Assembly (NCBI GenBank): GCA_963707855.1 | Contig: CAVPRQ010000013.1 | Coordinates: 327,301-391,300, forward strand | Source of the DNA: an uncultured Thermoleophilia bacterium | GTDB taxonomy: Bacteria; Actinomycetota; Thermoleophilia; UBA2241 | DNA length: 64,000 nucleotides | Direction: 5' to 3' | Part shown: positions 22,529 through 45,608 of the stretch, one piece after another | How positions within the stretch are numbered: position 1 is the stretch's first letter | Layout of the letters: every line of letters begins with the position of its first letter | Notes under the pieces: generated by a model | Database searches by the model: none | What the model saw: only the letters and a program-made list of their open reading frames with translations | Told to the model about the DNA's origin: nothing | Translations under genes and position numbers: made by a program

Positions 22529-23960
22529 ATGCAGGCCGTTCTCGAAGTCCTGACAGCCGACGAACAGGCGCAGGTGCACGAGCGCACGCTCAAGGTGCTG
22601 TGGGAGCACGGCATGCGCGTCGACCCGGACGAGGGGCGGCGCGCCCTGGCCGCCGCCGGCGCCCAGGTCGACGAGGCGACGCGCATGGTGCGCTTCCCCC
22701 GCGCGCTGGTCGAGGAGGCGCTCCGCCTCGCCCCGAAGCGGTTCTCCCTCGGGGGGCGCCGCGCCGGACTTCTCCTTCCCCCTCAACGCCGGCGGGTTCA
22801 CGCTGCTCGCCGACGGCGGGGCGACGACGCTGCTCGACCGCCGCACCGGCGAGCGCCGCGCCCCCACGCGCGAGGACTGGATCGAGGCGACGACCCTCAT
22901 CGACGCCTTCGACGACGTCGGCCTGTTCTGGTCGCTCTGCCACCACCCGTCCGACGACCAGGGTCTGCACGGGCTTCGTCGACTACCTGACGGACATGTT
23001 CGCGACCTTCGGCAAGCACGTCCAGGACTCGTTCGGCGAGCCGGCCGTCGCTCCGTGGGTCCTCGAGGTGCTCGACATCGTGTTCGGCGGCCGCGACGAG
23101 GTCCGGCGGCGCCACCCGTTCTCGTTCCTCATCACGCCGACCTCGCCGCTGATCATCGAGGCCGACTACACGGGCACGTGGCTGGCGATGCGCGGCTGGG
23201 ACATCCCGGTCGCCGTGATGCCCATGCCGCTCATGGGCGCGACGGCGCCCGGCAGCCGCCTGGGCACGGTCCTCACCGCCAACTGCGAGGTCATCGGGAC
23301 GCTGTGCCTGGTCCAGGCCGCCGCCCCGGGCACGCCGTTCATCTACGCGCCGGTGCTGGCGACCATGGACCCGCGGACGGGTCGCTACGGCGCCGGCGCG
23401 ATCGAGCAGGGCGCGATGAGCCTGGCGGCGATCGCCATGGCGCGCTACTACGGCCTGCCGGTGGAGGCCTCGGGATCGAGCACCGACGCCTTCGAGCCCG
23501 GCGCCCAGGCGGCCTACGAGAAGGCGGCGATGGGGCTCATGGTCACCATGGGCTGGCCGGACATCCTCGTCGGGCCGGGTCTGCTCGGCGGGGCCATCAT
23601 GCTGAGCTTCGAGCAGCTGGTCATCGACATCGAGATCTTCCGCCTCGCGCGTCAGGGCCGTGCCGGTGTGCCGGTCGCGCGACGAGCTCTGGCTCGACGA
23701 CGTCCTCACCCGCGTCGGCCCCGGAGGCACTTCATCGGCGAGCCCTCGACGCGGCGCAACATGCGCGCCGGCGAGTGGCTGCTGAGCGACTTCGGCAACC
23801 GCGACACGTTCGAGACGTGGCAGGCGGCCGGCGGGCTCAGCACGGTCGAGGCGGCGCGGGCCGGGTCGAGGAGATCCTCGCCGCGGAGCGCCCGCCGGGC
23901 CTCGACGAGGCGAAGCTGGGCGCCCTGCGCGCGCTGGCCAAGCGGGCGGCCGACGCCTGA
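22529..23960 (+). CDS. MttB-superfamily methyltransferase, non-pyrrolysine (frameshifted)
   Basis: VHERTLKVL, MGATAP, YYGLPVEASGSSTD (sense codon at Pyl-equivalent site), EQLVIDIEI. Confidence 0.88.
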
Positions 23961-40613: not shown

Positions 40614-40738
40614 CGCGCGCTGGGGGCGGGGCGGCCGTCAGGCCGCCCGCGCCCCCCTCGCCCCGCCGCGCCCGCTCCCCTGATACAGTCCCGCCGAGAC
40701 TCCTCGCGTGGGTCTGAGACAGGAAGGGCGGTGACCAC

Positions 40739-42129
40739 GTGGCCGAGCCTAGGATCCCGACCCGCATGGGCGACGGGTTCATGGTCGAGATGACGCGCAG
40801 CGAGCTGCGCGCCGACATCGAGGCGGGCACGGCCGAAGGGGCCCGCAGGGCCAAGTGCCCGCCGCTCGGCGCCGACGAGCTCGACCACCTGCTCGACATC
40901 TACGCCTCGCCCGCCGCCTTCACCGCCGTCGACATCGGCGACCAGGTCGTCCTCAGCTGCGACGGGGGCGGCTCCAAGATGACCGGCACCGACCTTCAGG
41001 ACCTGCTCGAAAGCGAGCAGCGCCTCGGCCAGGACATCCTCGAGCTCTGGCACATCGAGTACAGCTACAAGGCGATCAAGACGATCCTGCCGTTCCAGCA
41101 GCAGCTCATGCAGAACGCGCAGCTCATGCTCACGGCGCCGATCCAGTACGGGGCGCAGCCCAACCTCGCCTTCTACTCCAAGCCGGACGGGCCCGCGGAC
41201 AACTGGTTCGAGCTGCTGCCGCAGGGCCGCATCGCCGAAGGCAAGGCGGCCGTCGAAGAGGCCATCGACTACGCGACCAAGGACTTCATCTACGTCAGCG
41301 ACGGCATGATGGAGGCCGGCGCCGACGGCATGGACTTCGACACCACCGGCGGCGCCGGCGACGCCGACTTCCTGAGCACGCTGCGCGCCGTCAAGCACGT
41401 GCGCGAGCGCTACCCCGAGGCCGGCATCGAGCTCGGCATGGCCGGCGAGTTCGTCATCGGCGTGCACGGCGAGCTCGAGTGGGAGGGCCGCCGGCTCGCC
41501 GGCATGTGGCCCAAGGAGCAGCTCGAGGTCGCCCAGGACGCCGGCGCCACCATCTTCGGCCCGGCGGTGAACATCCGCACCTCGAAGAGCTGCGCCTGGA
41601 ACATCGCCTTCGCGCTCACCGTCATCAAGCCGTGCATGGACGTCGGCGCGCATCCCCGTGCACCCCAACGTCGGCCAGGGCGTCGTCGGCGTGCCGGTCA
41701 ACGGCTACCCCGGCGAGGACGCTTCGTCGCGGGCGGCCAAGGCCTGCGTCGAGATCCTGCGCTGCGACGGGTTGTAGGTGGGCTCGGGTGACTCCAGGGG
41801 CATGGACGTCACCCACGCGCTCGCCGCGGGCATGGGCGGGATCCGCACGGCCGGAGACCTGGTCGCGAGGATGCAGATGTCGCGGGGCATGCGCCTGCAA
41901 GGAAGCGAAGGAGTACGTCGCCGGGAAGCTCGGCTGCACGGTCCGCGACCTGAGCGACAGCTACGCCATGGAGCAGCTGAGGGGCGAGAAGGGGCTGGGG
42001 AGGATCCTCGACCACTCGAACCTGCACCCCGGCGAGCCCAACGCGATGTACGCCAAGTTCCGCATCGCGGAGCTGCTCGGCATCCGCATCAACAGCGTCG
42101 AGCGGTTCAAGGAGCTGGCCGGGTTCTAG
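40739..42129 (+). CDS. mtbB: Dimethylamine:corrinoid methyltransferase MtbB with in-frame amber (pyrrolysine) codon at 41775-41777; two frameshifts
   Basis: TRMGDG, HIEYSYK, YGAQPN, FDTTGGAGD, GMAGEFVIGVHG, FGPAVN; CDGL-TAG-VGSGD; GIRTAGDLVARM, EAKEYVA, INSVERF. Confidence 0.92.
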
Positions 42130-42161: not shown

Positions 42162-43654
42162 ATGAGCAGCCACACGCCCGACATCGTGAGCATCCCGGCG
42201 CGGCCGGGGCAGGACCCGCTCGACGCGGCGCAGATCGAGCGGCTGCGACAGGCCACGCTGACGATCCTCGACGAGATCGGCGTGCACATGCCGTCGGCGC
42301 GCGCCCGGGAGATCCTCGCGAGTCACGGCGCCCGGGTCGGGGACGACGAGGTCGTGCGGATACCGCCGGACCTCGTCGTCAAGGCGATGTCGACCGCGCC
42401 GCGCTCGTTCGTGCTCGCCGGGCGCGAGGAGCGGCTCGACCTGCTCCTCGACGGGACCCGCTGCTACATCTGCACCGAGGGCGTGGGGACGAAGGTCGCC
42501 GACCCGGTGACGGGGGAGCTCCGTTCGTCGCGCAAGGACGACGTCGCCCTCATGGCGCGGATCTGCGACGCCCTGCCGCTGCTCTCGTTCTACTGGCCGC
42601 CCGTGAGCGCCCAGGACCACCTGCGCACGGCGCCGCTGCACGAGTGCCACGCGGGCCTGAGCAACACGCTCAAGCACGTGCGCGGGGCGACGACCGTGTA
42701 CCCGGAGCTCGCGAAGTACGTGGTCGAGATGGCGACCGTGGTGGCCGGCTCGGACGCGGAGCGTCGCCGCCGGCCACCGATCTGCGGCAACATCTGCACG
42801 ATCTCACCCCTGGCTCAGGATGGCCCTGGCCTGGAGTGCGCGCTCGCGTACGCCGAGGCCGGCCTCCCGTTCAGCTTCATGGCGATGCCGACGATGGGGT
42901 CCACGGCGCCGGCGACGGAGCTCGGCGCCATCGCCGTCGGCCGACGCCGAGGTCGTCAGCGGCATGGTGCTCGTGCAGCTCGCCAGCCCCGGCGCGCCCG
43001 TCTTCCACTCGTTCTTCGTCTCGCTCATGGACCCGCTCAGCGGGGGCTACATCTCGGAGGTCGAGGGGCAGGCGGAGCGCATCGCCGTCCAGCTCGCGCA
43101 CGCCTGGGGCGTGCCGAGCCTCGGCGGCGGGTCGGTGAGCGGCGACGCGACGGCGCCGGGCTGGCAGACCGGCGTGAGTGCGGGCATCGGCGCCGTCGCC
43201 GTGCCGCTCTTCGGGGCTGAGGTCTGCGGGTCGATCGCGACTCGAGGCCGGATCGACGATCCTGTATCCGGACAAGGTGATCCGCGACTGCGAGGCGCTG
43301 CTGCACGCGGCGGCGCTCGTCGGCCCGGCGGAGTTCGACGAGGAGGACCTGGCGCTCGACGTCATCCGCGCCGTCGGTCCGCGCGGCCACTACATGGCCC
43401 AGCGGCACACGCGCGAGCACCTCCGCGACCACCGCCTGCCGCTGTGGCTGACACACGCGGGGCGCGAGGCGGCGGCGGAGATGCGGCGGAGAGGCGGCGC
43501 GGAGGGCGGCCTGGAGCCGGCCCGCGCCGCCGCCATCGCCGAGTTCCGCCGCCTCGAGCGCGAGCATCATCCGGAGCCGCTCGCGCCCGACGTGCAGCGC
43601 GAGCTCGATGCGGTCGTGGCCGCGGCCGATCGCGAGGCGGAGAAGCTGGGCTGA
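42162..43654 (+). CDS. MttB-superfamily methyltransferase, non-pyrrolysine (frameshifted)
   Basis: TLTILDEIGV, NTLKHV, ISPL, MGSTAPAT, LALDVIRAVGPRGHY..QRHT. Confidence 0.88.
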
Positions 43655-44231: not shown

Positions 44232-45608
44232 TCAGGCGCCGATGAGCCTCTTCACCATCGTCGCGCGACGGCTCTGCTTGCCGGTGCGCTCCTCGTAGCT
44301 GTCGGCGCTGGCCATCGCCTTCATGGCGGCGTTCACCGCGAGCCAGCGGAGCGGCTCGGGTTCCCACAGCGGGGACTGGTGGCCGACCCAGGGCAGCGCC
44401 GTGAGCTCCGAGTCCTCGCCGAGGATGAGGTCGCGCAACGTGCGTCCGGCAAGGTTCGTCGTCCCGACGCCGTCGCCCACGTACCCGCCGGCCCAGGCGC
44501 GGCCCGACACGCGGTCGAGCCCGACCGAGCTGTACCAGTCGCGGGGGATGCCGATGGGGCCGCCCCAGGTGTGTGACACGTTGACCGGGCCCATCTGGGG
44601 GAAGAGGCGCCGGACGACGGCCTTGAGGGCCTCGAACACACCGGGCTCGTCGACGAAGTCGTCGTTGATGCGCGAACCAAGGTGGTACGGAGCGCCGCGA
44701 CCGCCGATGGCGAGGCGGTCGTCGTCTGTGCGCATCGCGTAGACGATCAGGAAGCGCCCGTCGTTGAAGGTCTCGTGCTGGCGCCACCCGACGGCGTCCC
44801 AGACGTCGGCGGTGAACGGTTCCGTGGCGATCATCAGCGAGTAGAGCGGCAGGACGACACGCTCGCATCCGGGCAGCTCGGCGGTGTAGCCCTCGGTGGC
44901 GCGCACGACGACCTCGGCGGTGACGGCGCCGACGGGCGTCTCGACGCGGCCGGCCGAGAGGCTGAGGGCGGGCGTGCGCTCGTAGATGGGCACGCCCAGG
45001 CGCTCGACGACGTCGGCGAGTCCGCGCGCCAGCCGCGCCGGATCGACGCAGGCGCAGTGCGGGGTGAAGTAGGCGCCGAGGCTGCCGGTCGCGGCGATCC
45101 GCGATCGCGCCTCCTCGGCGCTCAGCAGCCGGTAGTCCTCCTCGCCGAAGCCCCAGGAGCGCTCCCACTCGATCTCCTCGCGGGCGCGCTCGAGCTGGGG
45201 CACGTTGGAGGCCTGCACCAGGGCGCCGCCCTTGTGGAAGCGCGCGTCGATGCCCTCCTCGGCGGCGACGCGCCCCACCTCGTCGACGGTCTCGAACATC
45301 GCCCTCTGCATGGCGATCGCCGCCGCGCGCCCGTGACGCTTCGCGGTCGCCTCGCGCGAGCCGGCGAAGAACGACGAGCACCAGCCGCCGTTGCGTCCCG
45401 AGGCGCCGAAGCCGGCGATCTCGCGCTCGAGCACGGCGACGCGCAGGTGCGGGTCGGCCTTCTTGAGGTAGTAGGCGGTCCAGAGGCCGGTGTACCCAGC
45501 GCCGACGATGGCGACGTCCACATCCAGCGGACCTTCCAGGCCGGGTCGCGGGGTGAGCTCGCCGGGCACGCCGTCGAGCCAGAGACTGCGGGAACGGTAG
45601 TCGGTCAC
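44232..45608 (-). CDS. FAD-dependent oxidoreductase, DadA/PuuB family
   Basis: IVGAGYTGL, GASGRNGG, ATEGY, GYVGDGV. Confidence 0.9.
   Translation of the reverse strand: MTDYRSRSLWLDGVPGELTPRPGLEGPLDVDVAIVGAGYTGLWTAYYLKKADPHLRVAVLEREIAGFGASGRNGGWCSSFFAGSREATAKRHGRAAAIAMQRAMFETVDEVGRVAAEEGIDARFHKGGALVQASNVPQLERAREEIEWERSWGFGEEDYRLLSAEEARSRIAATGSLGAYFTPHCACVDPARLARGLADVVERLGVPIYERTPALSLSAGRVETPVGAVTAEVVVRATEGYTAELPGCERVVLPLYSLMIATEPFTADVWDAVGWRQHETFNDGRFLIVYAMRTDDDRLAIGGRGAPYHLGSRINDDFVDEPGVFEALKAVVRRLFPQMGPVNVSHTWGGPIGIPRDWYSSVGLDRVSGRAWAGGYVGDGVGTTNLAGRTLRDLILGEDSELTALPWVGHQSPLWEPEPLRWLAVNAAMKAMASADSYEERTGKQSRRATMVKRLIGA

What the first reader, a model, noticed from the sequence alone, without database searches (positions are those of the whole stretch)
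40739..42129. Pyrrolysine-encoding dimethylamine methyltransferase (mtbB) in a high-GC, actinobacterium-like genome
Seen: after correcting a frameshift near 41650 the frame reads ...EILRCDGL-TAG(41775-41777)-VGSGDSRGMDVTHALAAGMGGIRTAGDLVARM, and MtbB-like sequence continues for about 115 more codons. Established: methanogen MtbB has pyrrolysine in the equivalent context (VDGI-O-IGVGD). Other disruptions in this window are indels, so a stop exactly at the catalytic Pyl site is unlikely to be an error. Inference: this organism uses an expanded genetic code and amine methylotrophy, unusual for this apparent lineage. The protein looks diverged from methanogen MtbB (shorter N-terminal region), so the substrate may differ from dimethylamine.
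Basis: partly seen in the sequence, partly recalled or inferred. Interest (0 to 1): 0.92.

Follow-up and report, generated by a model that had tools for sequence, protein, structure and literature searches.

The report
Pyrrolysine methyltransferase gene in Thermoleophilia
This is a real gene for a pyrrolysine-containing, dimethylamine-type methyltransferase in an uncultured actinobacterium that carries the full machinery for the 22nd amino acid; its two frame breaks look like sequencing errors, and similar genes in Actinobacteria have been reported before.

Summary
Window 40739-42129 (+) encodes an MtbB-family protein (Pfam PF09505, profile 4-462 of 463) with an in-frame TAG at 41775-41777. 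That TAG sits in the column where methanogen MtbB gene calls end.

The gene is broken by two single-base insertions (about 41643 and 41898), not one. Eight orthologues in the same genus are single frames with the same TAG. dN/dS is 0.06, and the essential rpoC of this assembly is in five pieces, so the breaks are most likely assembly errors.

The same contig carries pylB, pylC, pylD, tRNA-Pyl(CUA), pylSn and pylSc. The genome has 11 MtbB-family loci, each with one in-frame TAG (motif read directly at 9), and 7 MttB loci with a TAG at one conserved motif. It also has 10 corrinoid-protein hits and 2 RamA-type activator loci.

Relatives are labelled Thermoleophilia. PylSc was found in 32 of 35 genomes of this family, 5 of 35 of a second family and 0 of 130 others sampled in the class.

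This is not a first: PylRS in two Actinobacteria and Actinobacteriota genomes expressing Pyl-type mtbB are in print. My searches found no paper describing two further points. The window gene belongs to a well-supported paralogue clade separate from canonical MtbB, and it is paired with a non-Pyl MttB-family gene. Its substrate is untested.

The parts
40721..40728 (+). Putative ribosome-binding site AGGAAGGG, 10 nt upstream of the GTG start
   Evidence: Read directly from the sequence. This is an inference only.
40739..41642 (+). MtbB-family gene, first frame (GTG start; residues 1 to about 301)
   Evidence: PF09505 profile 4-310, E 1.3e-95. 98% identical to the orthologue in G001.
41643..41643 (+). 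First extra base (+1 shift). It is absent from all 8 orthologues in the genus.
   Evidence: Singleton insertion column in the DNA alignment. One base is left out at 41643-41645 in contigs of two other metagenomes, X2 and X4.
41644..41897 (+). MtbB-family gene, second frame, which holds the Pyl codon
   Evidence: PF09505 profile 311-395, E 5e-32.
41775..41777 (+). In-frame TAG, the predicted pyrrolysine codon (codon 346 of the corrected frame)
   Evidence: Same codon in 8 of 8 orthologues. Invariant column in 16 of 16 family members. It is the column where the Methanolobus MtbB call ends.
41898..41898 (+). Second extra base (+1 shift; the alignment places it at 41897 or 41898)
   Evidence: Singleton insertion column. 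One base is left out at 41898 in one contig of X2.
41899..42129 (+). MtbB-family gene, third frame, ending in a TAG stop at 42127-42129 with a TGA 11 codons further on
   Evidence: PF09505 profile 395-462, E 8.2e-17. Stop codons.
42162..43654 (+). Downstream partner: an MttB-superfamily gene with no Pyl codon, also split over three frames in this assembly
   Evidence: PF06253 pieces (rows C13:369504-370927). The orthologue in G005 is an intact 501-aa ORF with no TAG. It scores 291 bits against TIGR02369, below the 525-bit cut-off.

Best explanation
Window 40739-42129 is a working gene for a pyrrolysine-containing corrinoid methyltransferase of the MtbB (dimethylamine methyltransferase) family, in an uncultured anaerobic member of the class Thermoleophilia (Actinomycetota).

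Inferred mechanism: the UAG at 41775-41777 is read by Pyl-tRNA(CUA). That tRNA is charged by a split PylSn + PylSc synthetase with pyrrolysine made by PylBCD, all encoded about 220 kb away on the same contig. The resulting TIM-barrel enzyme of about 462 residues uses Pyl to bind and activate a methylated amine, and passes the methyl group to the Co(I) of a corrinoid protein. The genome has 10 corrinoid-protein hits and RamA-type reactivators. The methyl group would then go on to tetrahydrofolate and, in this genome, could feed acetyl-CoA synthase.

The two +1 frame breaks are errors of an unpolished assembly, not real lesions.

Shown here: family membership, the Pyl column, the Pyl machinery, conservation across the lineage, purifying selection, and indel breaks in another essential gene of the assembly. 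Inferred: translation of UAG as Pyl, the catalytic role, the methyl acceptor, and the substrate (dimethylamine or a related N-methyl amine).
For: Family membership
- The three pieces cover PF09505 positions 4-462 of 463.
- The G001 orthologue, 98% identical over the first 302 residues, scores 396.7 bits on the NCBIfam equivalog TIGR02368, whose cut-off is 369.1.

Pyl column
- The TAG aligns with the end of the Methanolobus-labelled P0217 and of P0190 and P0233.
- It is invariant in 16 of 16 sequences.
- The 9 own-genome rows with a TAG in the translated frame (9 of 11 loci) all show DG[LY]-TAG-[VA]GxGD. The TAGs of the window gene and C17:109860 lie in other frame pieces.

Pyl machinery on the same contig (C13)
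- pylB, 454.6 bits against a 348.2 cut-off.
- pylC in 3 pieces and pylD in 2 pieces.
- tRNA-Pyl with CUA anticodon; its cloverleaf has a 5-nt D loop, z = -4.1.
- pylSn, 121.5 bits against 51.15.
- pylSc, 316.1 bits against 178.15.

Frame breaks are artefacts
- After dropping two singleton columns, the gene is one frame with one stop at codon 346, like 8 of 8 orthologues.
- Against the nearest orthologue, dN/dS is 0.06. Downstream of the first break there are 21 synonymous and 2 non-synonymous differences.
- The essential rpoC is in 5 pieces; pylC, pylD and the neighbouring MttB gene are also split.
- In this gene, singleton indels occur in 3 of 4 few-contig, low-completeness assemblies (G000, G004, G008; not G001). 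They occur in 0 of 5 of the other assemblies.
- Contigs of two other metagenomes lack the extra bases.

Lineage-wide trait
- PF09505 is present in 23 of 24 other genomes of the family.
- PylSc is present in 32 of 35.

Fold
- AlphaFold model: pLDDT 86.6, pTM 0.90, with residue 346 on strand 344-347.
- Best structural matches are TIM-barrel methyltransferases: MetH N-terminal half Z 18.2, M. mazei methyltransferase 4ay7 Z 18.1, BHMT Z 16.9.

Pathway parts in the genome
- 10 corrinoid-protein hits.
- RACo/RamA-type activators at 2 loci.
- CdhC/ACS at C26:81727 and pterin-binding methyltransferases.
Against: - As assembled, the gene is not one open frame. No reads of the source sample were available: the best run held only 0.38 of the sampled words, so the extra bases are not directly shown to be errors.
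- No corrinoid-protein gene lies next to this copy. The nearest PF02607 hits are elsewhere in the genome.
- The gene sits in a clade separate from canonical MtbB and only just passes the equivalog cut-off, so dimethylamine specificity is doubtful.
- TAG also ends roughly 17-23% of long coding-like ORFs, including this gene itself. UAG is therefore ambiguous, and the efficiency of Pyl insertion is unknown.
- Nothing at the protein level was tested. RNA-library contigs overlap the gene, but the tool states this does not show transcription.
- CdhC was found in only 8 of 13 genomes of the genus and in 0 of the 3 best-quality ones, so the downstream fate of the methyl group is not uniform.
Confidence: 0.85

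Rival explanations
1. The gene encodes a Pyl-containing enzyme, but it is not a dimethylamine methyltransferase. It belongs to a Thermoleophilia-type paralogue radiation that acts on other N-methyl amines, possibly on the product of the adjacent non-Pyl MttB-family enzyme.
For: - The window gene and 6 other own paralogues fall in a clade with SH-aLRT 100 and a stem of 0.3 (31 of 61 rows). That clade is apart from the Methanolobus sequence, from own C20:133195 and from the G032 copy.
- Identity to canonical-type sequences is 41-49%.
- The TIGR02368 score is 396.7, against 504-658 for canonical-type copies.
- There is a 12-residue gap relative to canonical MtbB.
- Residues flanking the Pyl codon vary among paralogues: GDP, GDS, GDA, GDI.
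- The genome has 11 MtbB-family loci, more than one substrate would seem to need.
- By my reading of the coordinates, 7 of those 11 loci lie within about 2 kb of an MttB-family gene.
- The pairing with a non-Pyl MttB gene is kept in G005.
Against: - It still passes the equivalog cut-off for MtbB.
- The Pyl column and most invariant residues are shared with canonical MtbB.
- Methanosarcina also keeps several mtbB copies (recalled).
- No substrate information of any kind was obtained here.
- The tree is a quick, midpoint-rooted tree of N-terminal parts only, and the forks just below the root are weak (support 43).
Confidence: 0.35
2. This is a true pseudogene. The two frameshifts are real in this strain, and the copy is one decaying member of a large paralogue family.
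For: - The assembled sequence has two +1 shifts, and neither lies in a long homopolymer.
- With 11 paralogues, losing one copy would be tolerated.
- No source reads were available to check.
Against: - Downstream of the breaks the corrected frame shows 21 synonymous against 2 non-synonymous differences from the nearest orthologue.
- The same kind of break hits the essential rpoC (5 pieces), as well as pylC and pylD.
- Estimated completeness is 69% for only 28 contigs, which fits widespread indel errors.
Confidence: 0.08
3. UAG is an ordinary stop here. The locus yields a 345-residue protein, with or without a separate C-terminal piece, and no pyrrolysine is inserted.
For: - Public gene calls for this family mostly end at about 344-346 residues.
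- TAG is a common terminator in this genome.
Against: - A complete pyl gene set and a tRNA-Pyl are present.
- The 116 codons after the TAG are conserved under purifying selection and match the family profile through to its end.
- The TAG column is invariant in 16 of 16 sequences.
Confidence: 0.03

Closest known systems
MtbB, dimethylamine:corrinoid methyltransferase of Methanosarcinales (Pfam PF09505, NCBIfam TIGR02368)
   Same: Full-length match to the family profile, a single in-frame UAG in the same column and about the same length. The model is a TIM barrel of methyltransferase type; no MtbB structure is available to compare it with.
   Different: - Bacterial, high-GC host.
- 41-49% identity to canonical-type sequences.
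- Separate clade.
- A 12-residue gap and a 4-residue insertion.
- No adjacent mtbC-type corrinoid gene.
- The methyl acceptor cannot be coenzyme M as in methanogenesis (inference).
Pyl-encoding mttB and mtbB genes expressed by Actinobacteriota metagenome-assembled genomes (MAGs) in Stordalen Mire (PMC10805028), and the two Actinobacteria with PylRS in the survey of PMC9630628
   Same: Same phylum and the same kind of gene. The runs that hold related sequence are labelled wetland and sediment metagenomes.
   Different: I read passages only, and supplements are closed, so I cannot tell whether those genomes belong to this family. In the passages I read, neither paper mentions a paralogue radiation, a family-wide distribution or pairing with non-Pyl MttB genes.
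Bacterial Pyl users with a split PylSn + PylSc (Desulfitobacterium, Desulfosporosinus, Sporomusa, Acetohalobium, Bilophila, deltaproteobacterial symbionts)
   Same: pylSn and pylSc are separate genes, pylBCD and a single pylT are present. UAG is also still used as a stop.
   Different: - PylSc is only 53-55% identical to those of Desulfosporosinus and Sporomusa.
- The pyl genes are spread over about 11.7 kb, with unrelated genes between them and pylSc on the opposite strand.
- The set is dominated by MtbB-type genes (11) rather than MttB-type genes.
Non-Pyl MttB-superfamily methyltransferases for quaternary amines (MtgB, MtcB, MtpB, MtyB)
   Same: The downstream partner gene is an MttB-family member with no Pyl codon.
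   Different: Its substrate is unknown. It scores 291 bits on the trimethylamine equivalog, well under the 525-bit cut-off. No model for MtgB, MtcB or MtpB matched it at E <= 0.001 in NCBIfam.

Membership tests
MtbB / Dimeth_Pyl (PF09505; TIGR02368) | Sequence match over the whole family profile | tested here: met
   The three pieces cover profile positions 4-310, 311-395 and 395-462 of 463, with E 1.3e-95, 5e-32 and 8.2e-17.
MtbB / Dimeth_Pyl (PF09505; TIGR02368) | Score above NCBIfam's equivalog cut-off (369.1 bits) | tested here: inconclusive
   The intact G001 orthologue (98% identical over the first 302 residues) scores 396.7, just over the cut-off. The window's first piece alone scores 234.4. 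Canonical-type copies score 504-658.
MtbB / Dimeth_Pyl (PF09505; TIGR02368) | A single in-frame UAG at the pyrrolysine column | tested here: met
   The TAG at 41775-41777 aligns where the Methanolobus-labelled P0217 and also P0190 and P0233 end. The column is invariant in 16 of 16 sequences. The residue number of Pyl in M. barkeri MtbB1 is recalled only.
MtbB / Dimeth_Pyl (PF09505; TIGR02368) | One uninterrupted reading frame apart from the UAG | tested here: not met
   There are two +1 shifts in this assembly. All 8 orthologues lack these two insertions; 6 of the 8 are uninterrupted (G004 and G008 each carry their own singleton insertion). rpoC is also broken, so the shifts are probably artefacts.
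MtbB / Dimeth_Pyl (PF09505; TIGR02368) | TIM-barrel fold with Pyl inside the barrel | tested here: inconclusive
   The model (pLDDT 86.6) has residue 346 on a strand. Matches are generic or methyltransferase-type TIM barrels, Z up to 18.2. The PDB holds no MtbB structure, and the position of residue 346 relative to the cavity was not measured.
MtbB / Dimeth_Pyl (PF09505; TIGR02368) | Cognate corrinoid protein (MtbC) and a reductive activator (RamA) | tested here: met
   The genome has 10 PF02607 hits and RACo_C_ter at 2 loci. None is adjacent to this copy, and which one is the cognate partner is unknown.
MtbB / Dimeth_Pyl (PF09505; TIGR02368) | Dimethylamine-specific methyl transfer to a corrinoid protein | not testable with these tools
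   This needs an enzyme assay.
Pyrrolysine decoding system | PylRS present (PylSc catalytic domain, with or without PylSn) | tested here: met
   PylSc scores 316.1 bits against a 178.15 cut-off. PylSn scores 121.5 against 51.15.
Pyrrolysine decoding system | tRNA-Pyl with a CUA anticodon | tested here: met
   ARAGORN finds a tRNA-Pyl at C13:595724-595796, the only one in the genome. The cloverleaf fold has z = -4.1.
Pyrrolysine decoding system | Biosynthesis genes pylB, pylC and pylD | tested here: met
   pylB is over its cut-off. pylC (3 pieces) and pylD (2 pieces) each fall under their cut-offs because they are split, but together the pieces cover most of each profile.
Pyrrolysine decoding system | Pyl actually inserted at UAG | not testable with these tools
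   This needs proteomics.

The most novel reading that the evidence does not exclude
The window gene represents a separate, lineage-specific subfamily of pyrrolysine enzymes. Thermoleophilia of this family carry roughly ten diverged MtbB-like paralogues per genome, and many lie next to MttB-family genes that lack Pyl. Each paralogue may demethylate a different secondary or tertiary N-methyl amine rather than dimethylamine. Paired with the neighbouring enzyme, it could strip methyl groups in sequence from quaternary amines such as betaines. If so, pyrrolysine chemistry would extend well beyond the three classical methylamine substrates, and these bacteria would compete with methylotrophic methanogens in wetlands.
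Probability: 0.3. Interest if true: 0.75.

Novelty: new member of a known kind. Interest (0 to 1): 0.55.

Why it matters
Pyrrolysine use is rare, and most knowledge of it comes from methanogens and a few Firmicutes and Deltaproteobacteria. This work shows that a whole family of uncultured Thermoleophilia carries the complete system together with a large predicted Pyl-protein set: 11 MtbB-type and 7 MttB-type loci in this genome. The runs that hold related sequence are labelled wetland and sediment metagenomes.

Such bacteria could divert methylamines away from methane-producing archaea, which bears on wetland methane budgets. The diverged MtbB clade is a concrete, testable place to look for new substrates of Pyl enzymes, and no MtbB structure has yet been solved.

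There is also a practical lesson. Gene callers cut all of these genes at the TAG (most database entries are about 345 residues). Indel-rich long-read assemblies break them further, so this metabolism is systematically under-annotated.

Tried and rejected
Confirming the TAG and the frameshifts in source reads
- No run held more than 0.38 of the sampled words.
- Only assembled contigs of related populations could be laid on the stretch. They are no proof for this strain, and 126 further differences were not shown.
- Contigs from an RNA library (X15) overlapped 29 of 30 bins, but the tool states this does not show transcription. I do not count it as evidence of expression.

A solved MtbB structure for comparison
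- None exists by sequence search. The only hits were homeobox proteins at E 0.3-0.85, which is chance.
- Foldseek and VIA-align gave only TIM barrels. MtmB and MttB were not among the rows listed, which is no evidence that the folds differ.

Finding a named methanogen full-length MtbB
- The first protein search returned only close, truncated relatives.
- The second search, restricted to the C-terminal region, gave one Methanolobus-labelled truncated entry and three full-length unnamed homologues.
- I therefore used truncation points, not an annotated Pyl residue, to place the Pyl column.

A methylcobamide methyltransferase of the MtbA type
- PF01208 gave two hits of about 423 bits. These are probably uroporphyrinogen decarboxylase, so there is no clear MtbA.

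Pyl gene cluster contents
- Several ORFs I picked between the pyl genes had no Pfam match or matched unrelated families. Some were probably the wrong frame.

Explanations considered and rejected
- A misbinned Firmicutes contig. The contig is 641 kb at 69% GC, like the rest of the genome, and orthologues occur in 8 congeners.
- A truncated N-terminus. The family profile is covered from position 4.

Limits
- Stop-codon usage is a rough count from ORFs chosen by codon-position GC, and frameshifts distort it.
- Supplements of papers were closed and not seen. The lists of Pyl-bearing Actinobacteria in PMC9630628 and the genome taxonomy in PMC10805028 probably sit there, and they bear on how new the family-level finding is.
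- The statement that no paper describes Pyl in Thermoleophilia, or an MtbB paralogue radiation, rests on searches only.
Full report
**What is there**

The window is G000:C13:327301-391300. Between 40739 and 42129 on the + strand, three reading-frame pieces match Pfam PF09505 (Dimeth_Pyl). They cover profile positions 4-310, 311-395 and 395-462 of 463, with E 1.3e-95, 5e-32 and 8.2e-17. The middle piece contains TAG at 41775-41777 in the context EILRCDGL-TAG-VGSGDSRGMDV. The frame is broken twice, not once, and the N-terminus is complete. The difference from canonical MtbB is an internal gap of about 12 residues and a small C-terminal insertion.

**The frame breaks**

Eight orthologues in other genomes of the same genus are 87-98% identical in protein and 89-96.5% identical in DNA.

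- In a DNA alignment the window gene differs from all eight by two singleton one-base insertions, at about 41643 and about 41897/41898.
- With those two columns dropped, the gene is one frame with a single stop, TAG at codon 346, exactly as in all eight.
- Against the nearest orthologue there are 38 synonymous and 8 non-synonymous differences (dN/dS 0.06). Downstream of the first break the counts are 21 and 2. That does not fit a decaying pseudogene.
- The same assembly has its essential rpoC in five pieces, pylC in three and pylD in two. The neighbouring MttB-family gene is in three. Estimated completeness is 69% for only 28 contigs.
- In this gene, private one-base insertions occur in 3 of the 4 few-contig, low-completeness assemblies (G000, G004, G008; not G001). 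They occur in none of the other 5.
- Contigs of two unrelated metagenomes leave out one base at 41643-41645 (X2, X4) and at 41898 (X2).

I could not obtain reads of the source sample; the best run held 0.38 of the sampled words. The artefact reading is therefore strongly supported but not directly proven.

**The TAG is the pyrrolysine codon**

- Database gene calls for this family end just before this column. These include one labelled dimethylamine methyltransferase of Methanolobus (P0217, ending ...VDGI) and two others (P0190, P0233).
- The column is TAG in 16 of 16 full-length family members from eight genomes.
- In the own genome, the 9 rows that carry a TAG in the translated frame (9 of the 11 loci) show DG[LY]-TAG-[VA]GxGD. 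The window gene's TAG lies in its middle frame piece and has the same motif. The eleventh locus, C17:109649-110989, has its TAG only in a separate frame piece at C17:109860-110009.
- Of the 150 PF09505 matches listed for 25 related genomes, 136 have exactly one TAG inside.

**The decoding machinery**

All parts lie on the same contig, 223-234 kb downstream of the gene:

| Gene | Position on C13 |
|---|---|
| pylB | 591166-592185 |
| pylC | 592248-593416 |
| pylD | 593528-594375 |
| tRNA-Pyl (CUA) | 595724-595796 |
| pylSn | 598595-598855 |
| pylSc | 602117-602842, minus strand |

The tRNA is the only tRNA-Pyl among 55 tRNAs. It folds into a cloverleaf with a 5-nt D loop and an encoded CCA end.

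TAG is not reassigned genome-wide. It ends roughly 17-23% of long coding-like ORFs (a rough count). It is also the terminator of this very gene and of 2 of the 6 orthologues checked. UAG is therefore ambiguous, as in other Pyl users.

**Who carries it**

The closest PylSc relatives are in genomes titled Thermoleophilia bacterium, with a few titled Actinomycetota or Actinomycetes (66-89% identity). The next closest are Desulfosporosinus and Sporomusa, at 53-55%.

- In a sample of 201 genomes of the class, PylSc was found in 38. By family the counts are 32 of 35 in this family, 5 of 35 in a second family and 0 of 130 in ten others.
- PF09505 was found in 23 of 24 other genomes of this family and in 1 of 16 genomes from other families.
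- The runs that hold related sequence are labelled wetland and sediment metagenomes.

**Wider repertoire of this genome**

- 11 MtbB-family loci.
- About 35 MttB-family loci. Seven of them have a TAG in one conserved motif, PS[WF][VT]AG[LYA]-TAG-[AG]D, at profile position about 340.
- Two MtmB-family loci with no internal stop.
- Ten corrinoid-protein hits and two RamA-type activator loci.
- An acetyl-CoA synthase gene with a pterin-binding methyltransferase nearby on C26. CdhC was found in only 8 of 13 genomes of the genus.

**Which kind of MtbB**

I built a quick tree of 61 N-terminal parts.

- The window gene and six other own paralogues fall in a clade with SH-aLRT 100 and a stem of 0.3 (31 rows).
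- The Methanolobus sequence, the own copy at C20:133195 and the G032 copy from the second family lie outside that clade. They sit in another part of the tree, and the forks joining them near the root are weak (support 43).
- C20:133195 is followed by a Pyl-type MttB.
- The window gene is 54-63% identical to most own paralogues and 43% identical to C20:133195.
- Its orthologue scores 396.7 bits on the MtbB equivalog model (cut-off 369.1), against 504-658 for canonical-type copies.
- Residues next to the Pyl codon vary among paralogues: GDP, GDS, GDA, GDI.
- The gene directly downstream (42162-43654) is an MttB-family member with no Pyl codon. In G005 it is an intact 501-residue ORF, although there another gene lies between the two. 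It scores well under the trimethylamine equivalog cut-off.
- By my reading of the coordinates, 7 of the 11 MtbB loci lie within about 2 kb of an MttB-family gene.

All of this is compatible with a substrate other than dimethylamine, but nothing here tests that.

**Structure**

An AlphaFold model of the G001 orthologue has pLDDT 86.6 and pTM 0.90, with residue 346 on a β-strand. The best structural matches are TIM-barrel methyltransferases: the MetH N-terminal half (Z 18.2), an M. mazei methyltransferase, 4ay7 (Z 18.1), and BHMT (Z 16.9). No MtbB structure is in the PDB.

**What is already known**

- PMC9630628 (passages read) counted PylRS genes in 81 bacterial genomes, including two Actinobacteria.
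- PMC10805028 (passages read) reported that some Actinobacteriota genomes in a thawing-permafrost mire expressed Pyl-encoding mttB and mtbB.
- PMC7438021 (passages read) described anaerobic Thermoleophilia of the placeholder order UBA2241 from similar habitats, without mentioning Pyl.
- The only paper holding both 'Thermoleophilia' and 'pyrrolysine' is an unrelated soil survey, seen as a search listing only.

The existence of Pyl-type mtbB in Actinobacteria is therefore known. My searches found nothing on three points: near-universality in one Thermoleophilia family, the size of the MtbB radiation, and the pairing with non-Pyl MttB genes. Supplements were closed and may hold more.

**Verdict**

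This is a genuine Pyl-type MtbB-family gene in a genuine Pyl-using actinobacterium, broken only by assembly errors. It is a new member of a known kind. Interest is moderate, and rises if the diverged clade proves to have new substrates.

Noticed in passing
window 42162-43654: The MttB-superfamily gene directly downstream has no Pyl codon and is split over three frames in this assembly. Its G005 orthologue is an intact 501-aa ORF. Its substrate is unknown (291 bits against the 525-bit cut-off of the trimethylamine equivalog).
   Followed up: partly
window 22532-23862 (C13:349832-351162): A second MttB-family gene lies in the window, also in pieces (profile 28-102 and 190-466), with no internal stop listed.
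   Followed up: no
window 42127-42129: The MtbB gene's own terminator is TAG, with a TGA 11 codons further on. The same holds for the G001 and G012 orthologues, while 4 other orthologues end in TGA. One gene therefore uses UAG both as the Pyl codon and as its stop.
   Followed up: partly
G000:C13:240270-240367 and G000:C18:40924-41020: ARAGORN predicts two tRNA-Sec (UCA) genes, so the organism may use both selenocysteine and pyrrolysine. The sel genes were not searched.
   Followed up: no
proteins P0122, P0123, P0125 (alignment A1): These are full-length public MtbB homologues (466-468 aa) with Leu or Gln in the Pyl column. They may be non-Pyl variants or calls made under another reading. Their origin is unnamed.
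   Followed up: no
G000:C15:143230-144630: This Pyl-type MttB locus has a second in-frame TAG at about profile position 426, in addition to the one at the conserved motif. It could be a second Pyl codon, an error or a real truncation.
   Followed up: no
G000:C15:18193-22321: The essential rpoC gene is split into five pieces in this assembly. That is evidence of pervasive indel errors, which also explains the 69% completeness estimate.
   Followed up: yes
G000 contigs C1 and C27: These two contigs have 64.3% GC, against 69-72% for the rest. C27 carries a second, near-equal URO-D hit. They may be contamination or a mobile element.
   Followed up: no
G000:C26:81727-88829: An acetyl-CoA synthase (CdhC) gene, a RamA-type activator and a pterin-binding methyltransferase lie close together. 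CdhC was found in only 8 of 13 genomes of the genus and in 0 of the 3 best-quality ones.
   Followed up: partly
window 44232-45608 (-): A FAD-dependent amine oxidoreductase of the DAO family lies near the MtbB-MttB pair. Its best model is a putative aminophosphonate oxidoreductase, well under cut-off. An ORF lies at the corresponding position in G005, but it was not scanned. Any link to amine metabolism is speculative.
   Followed up: partly
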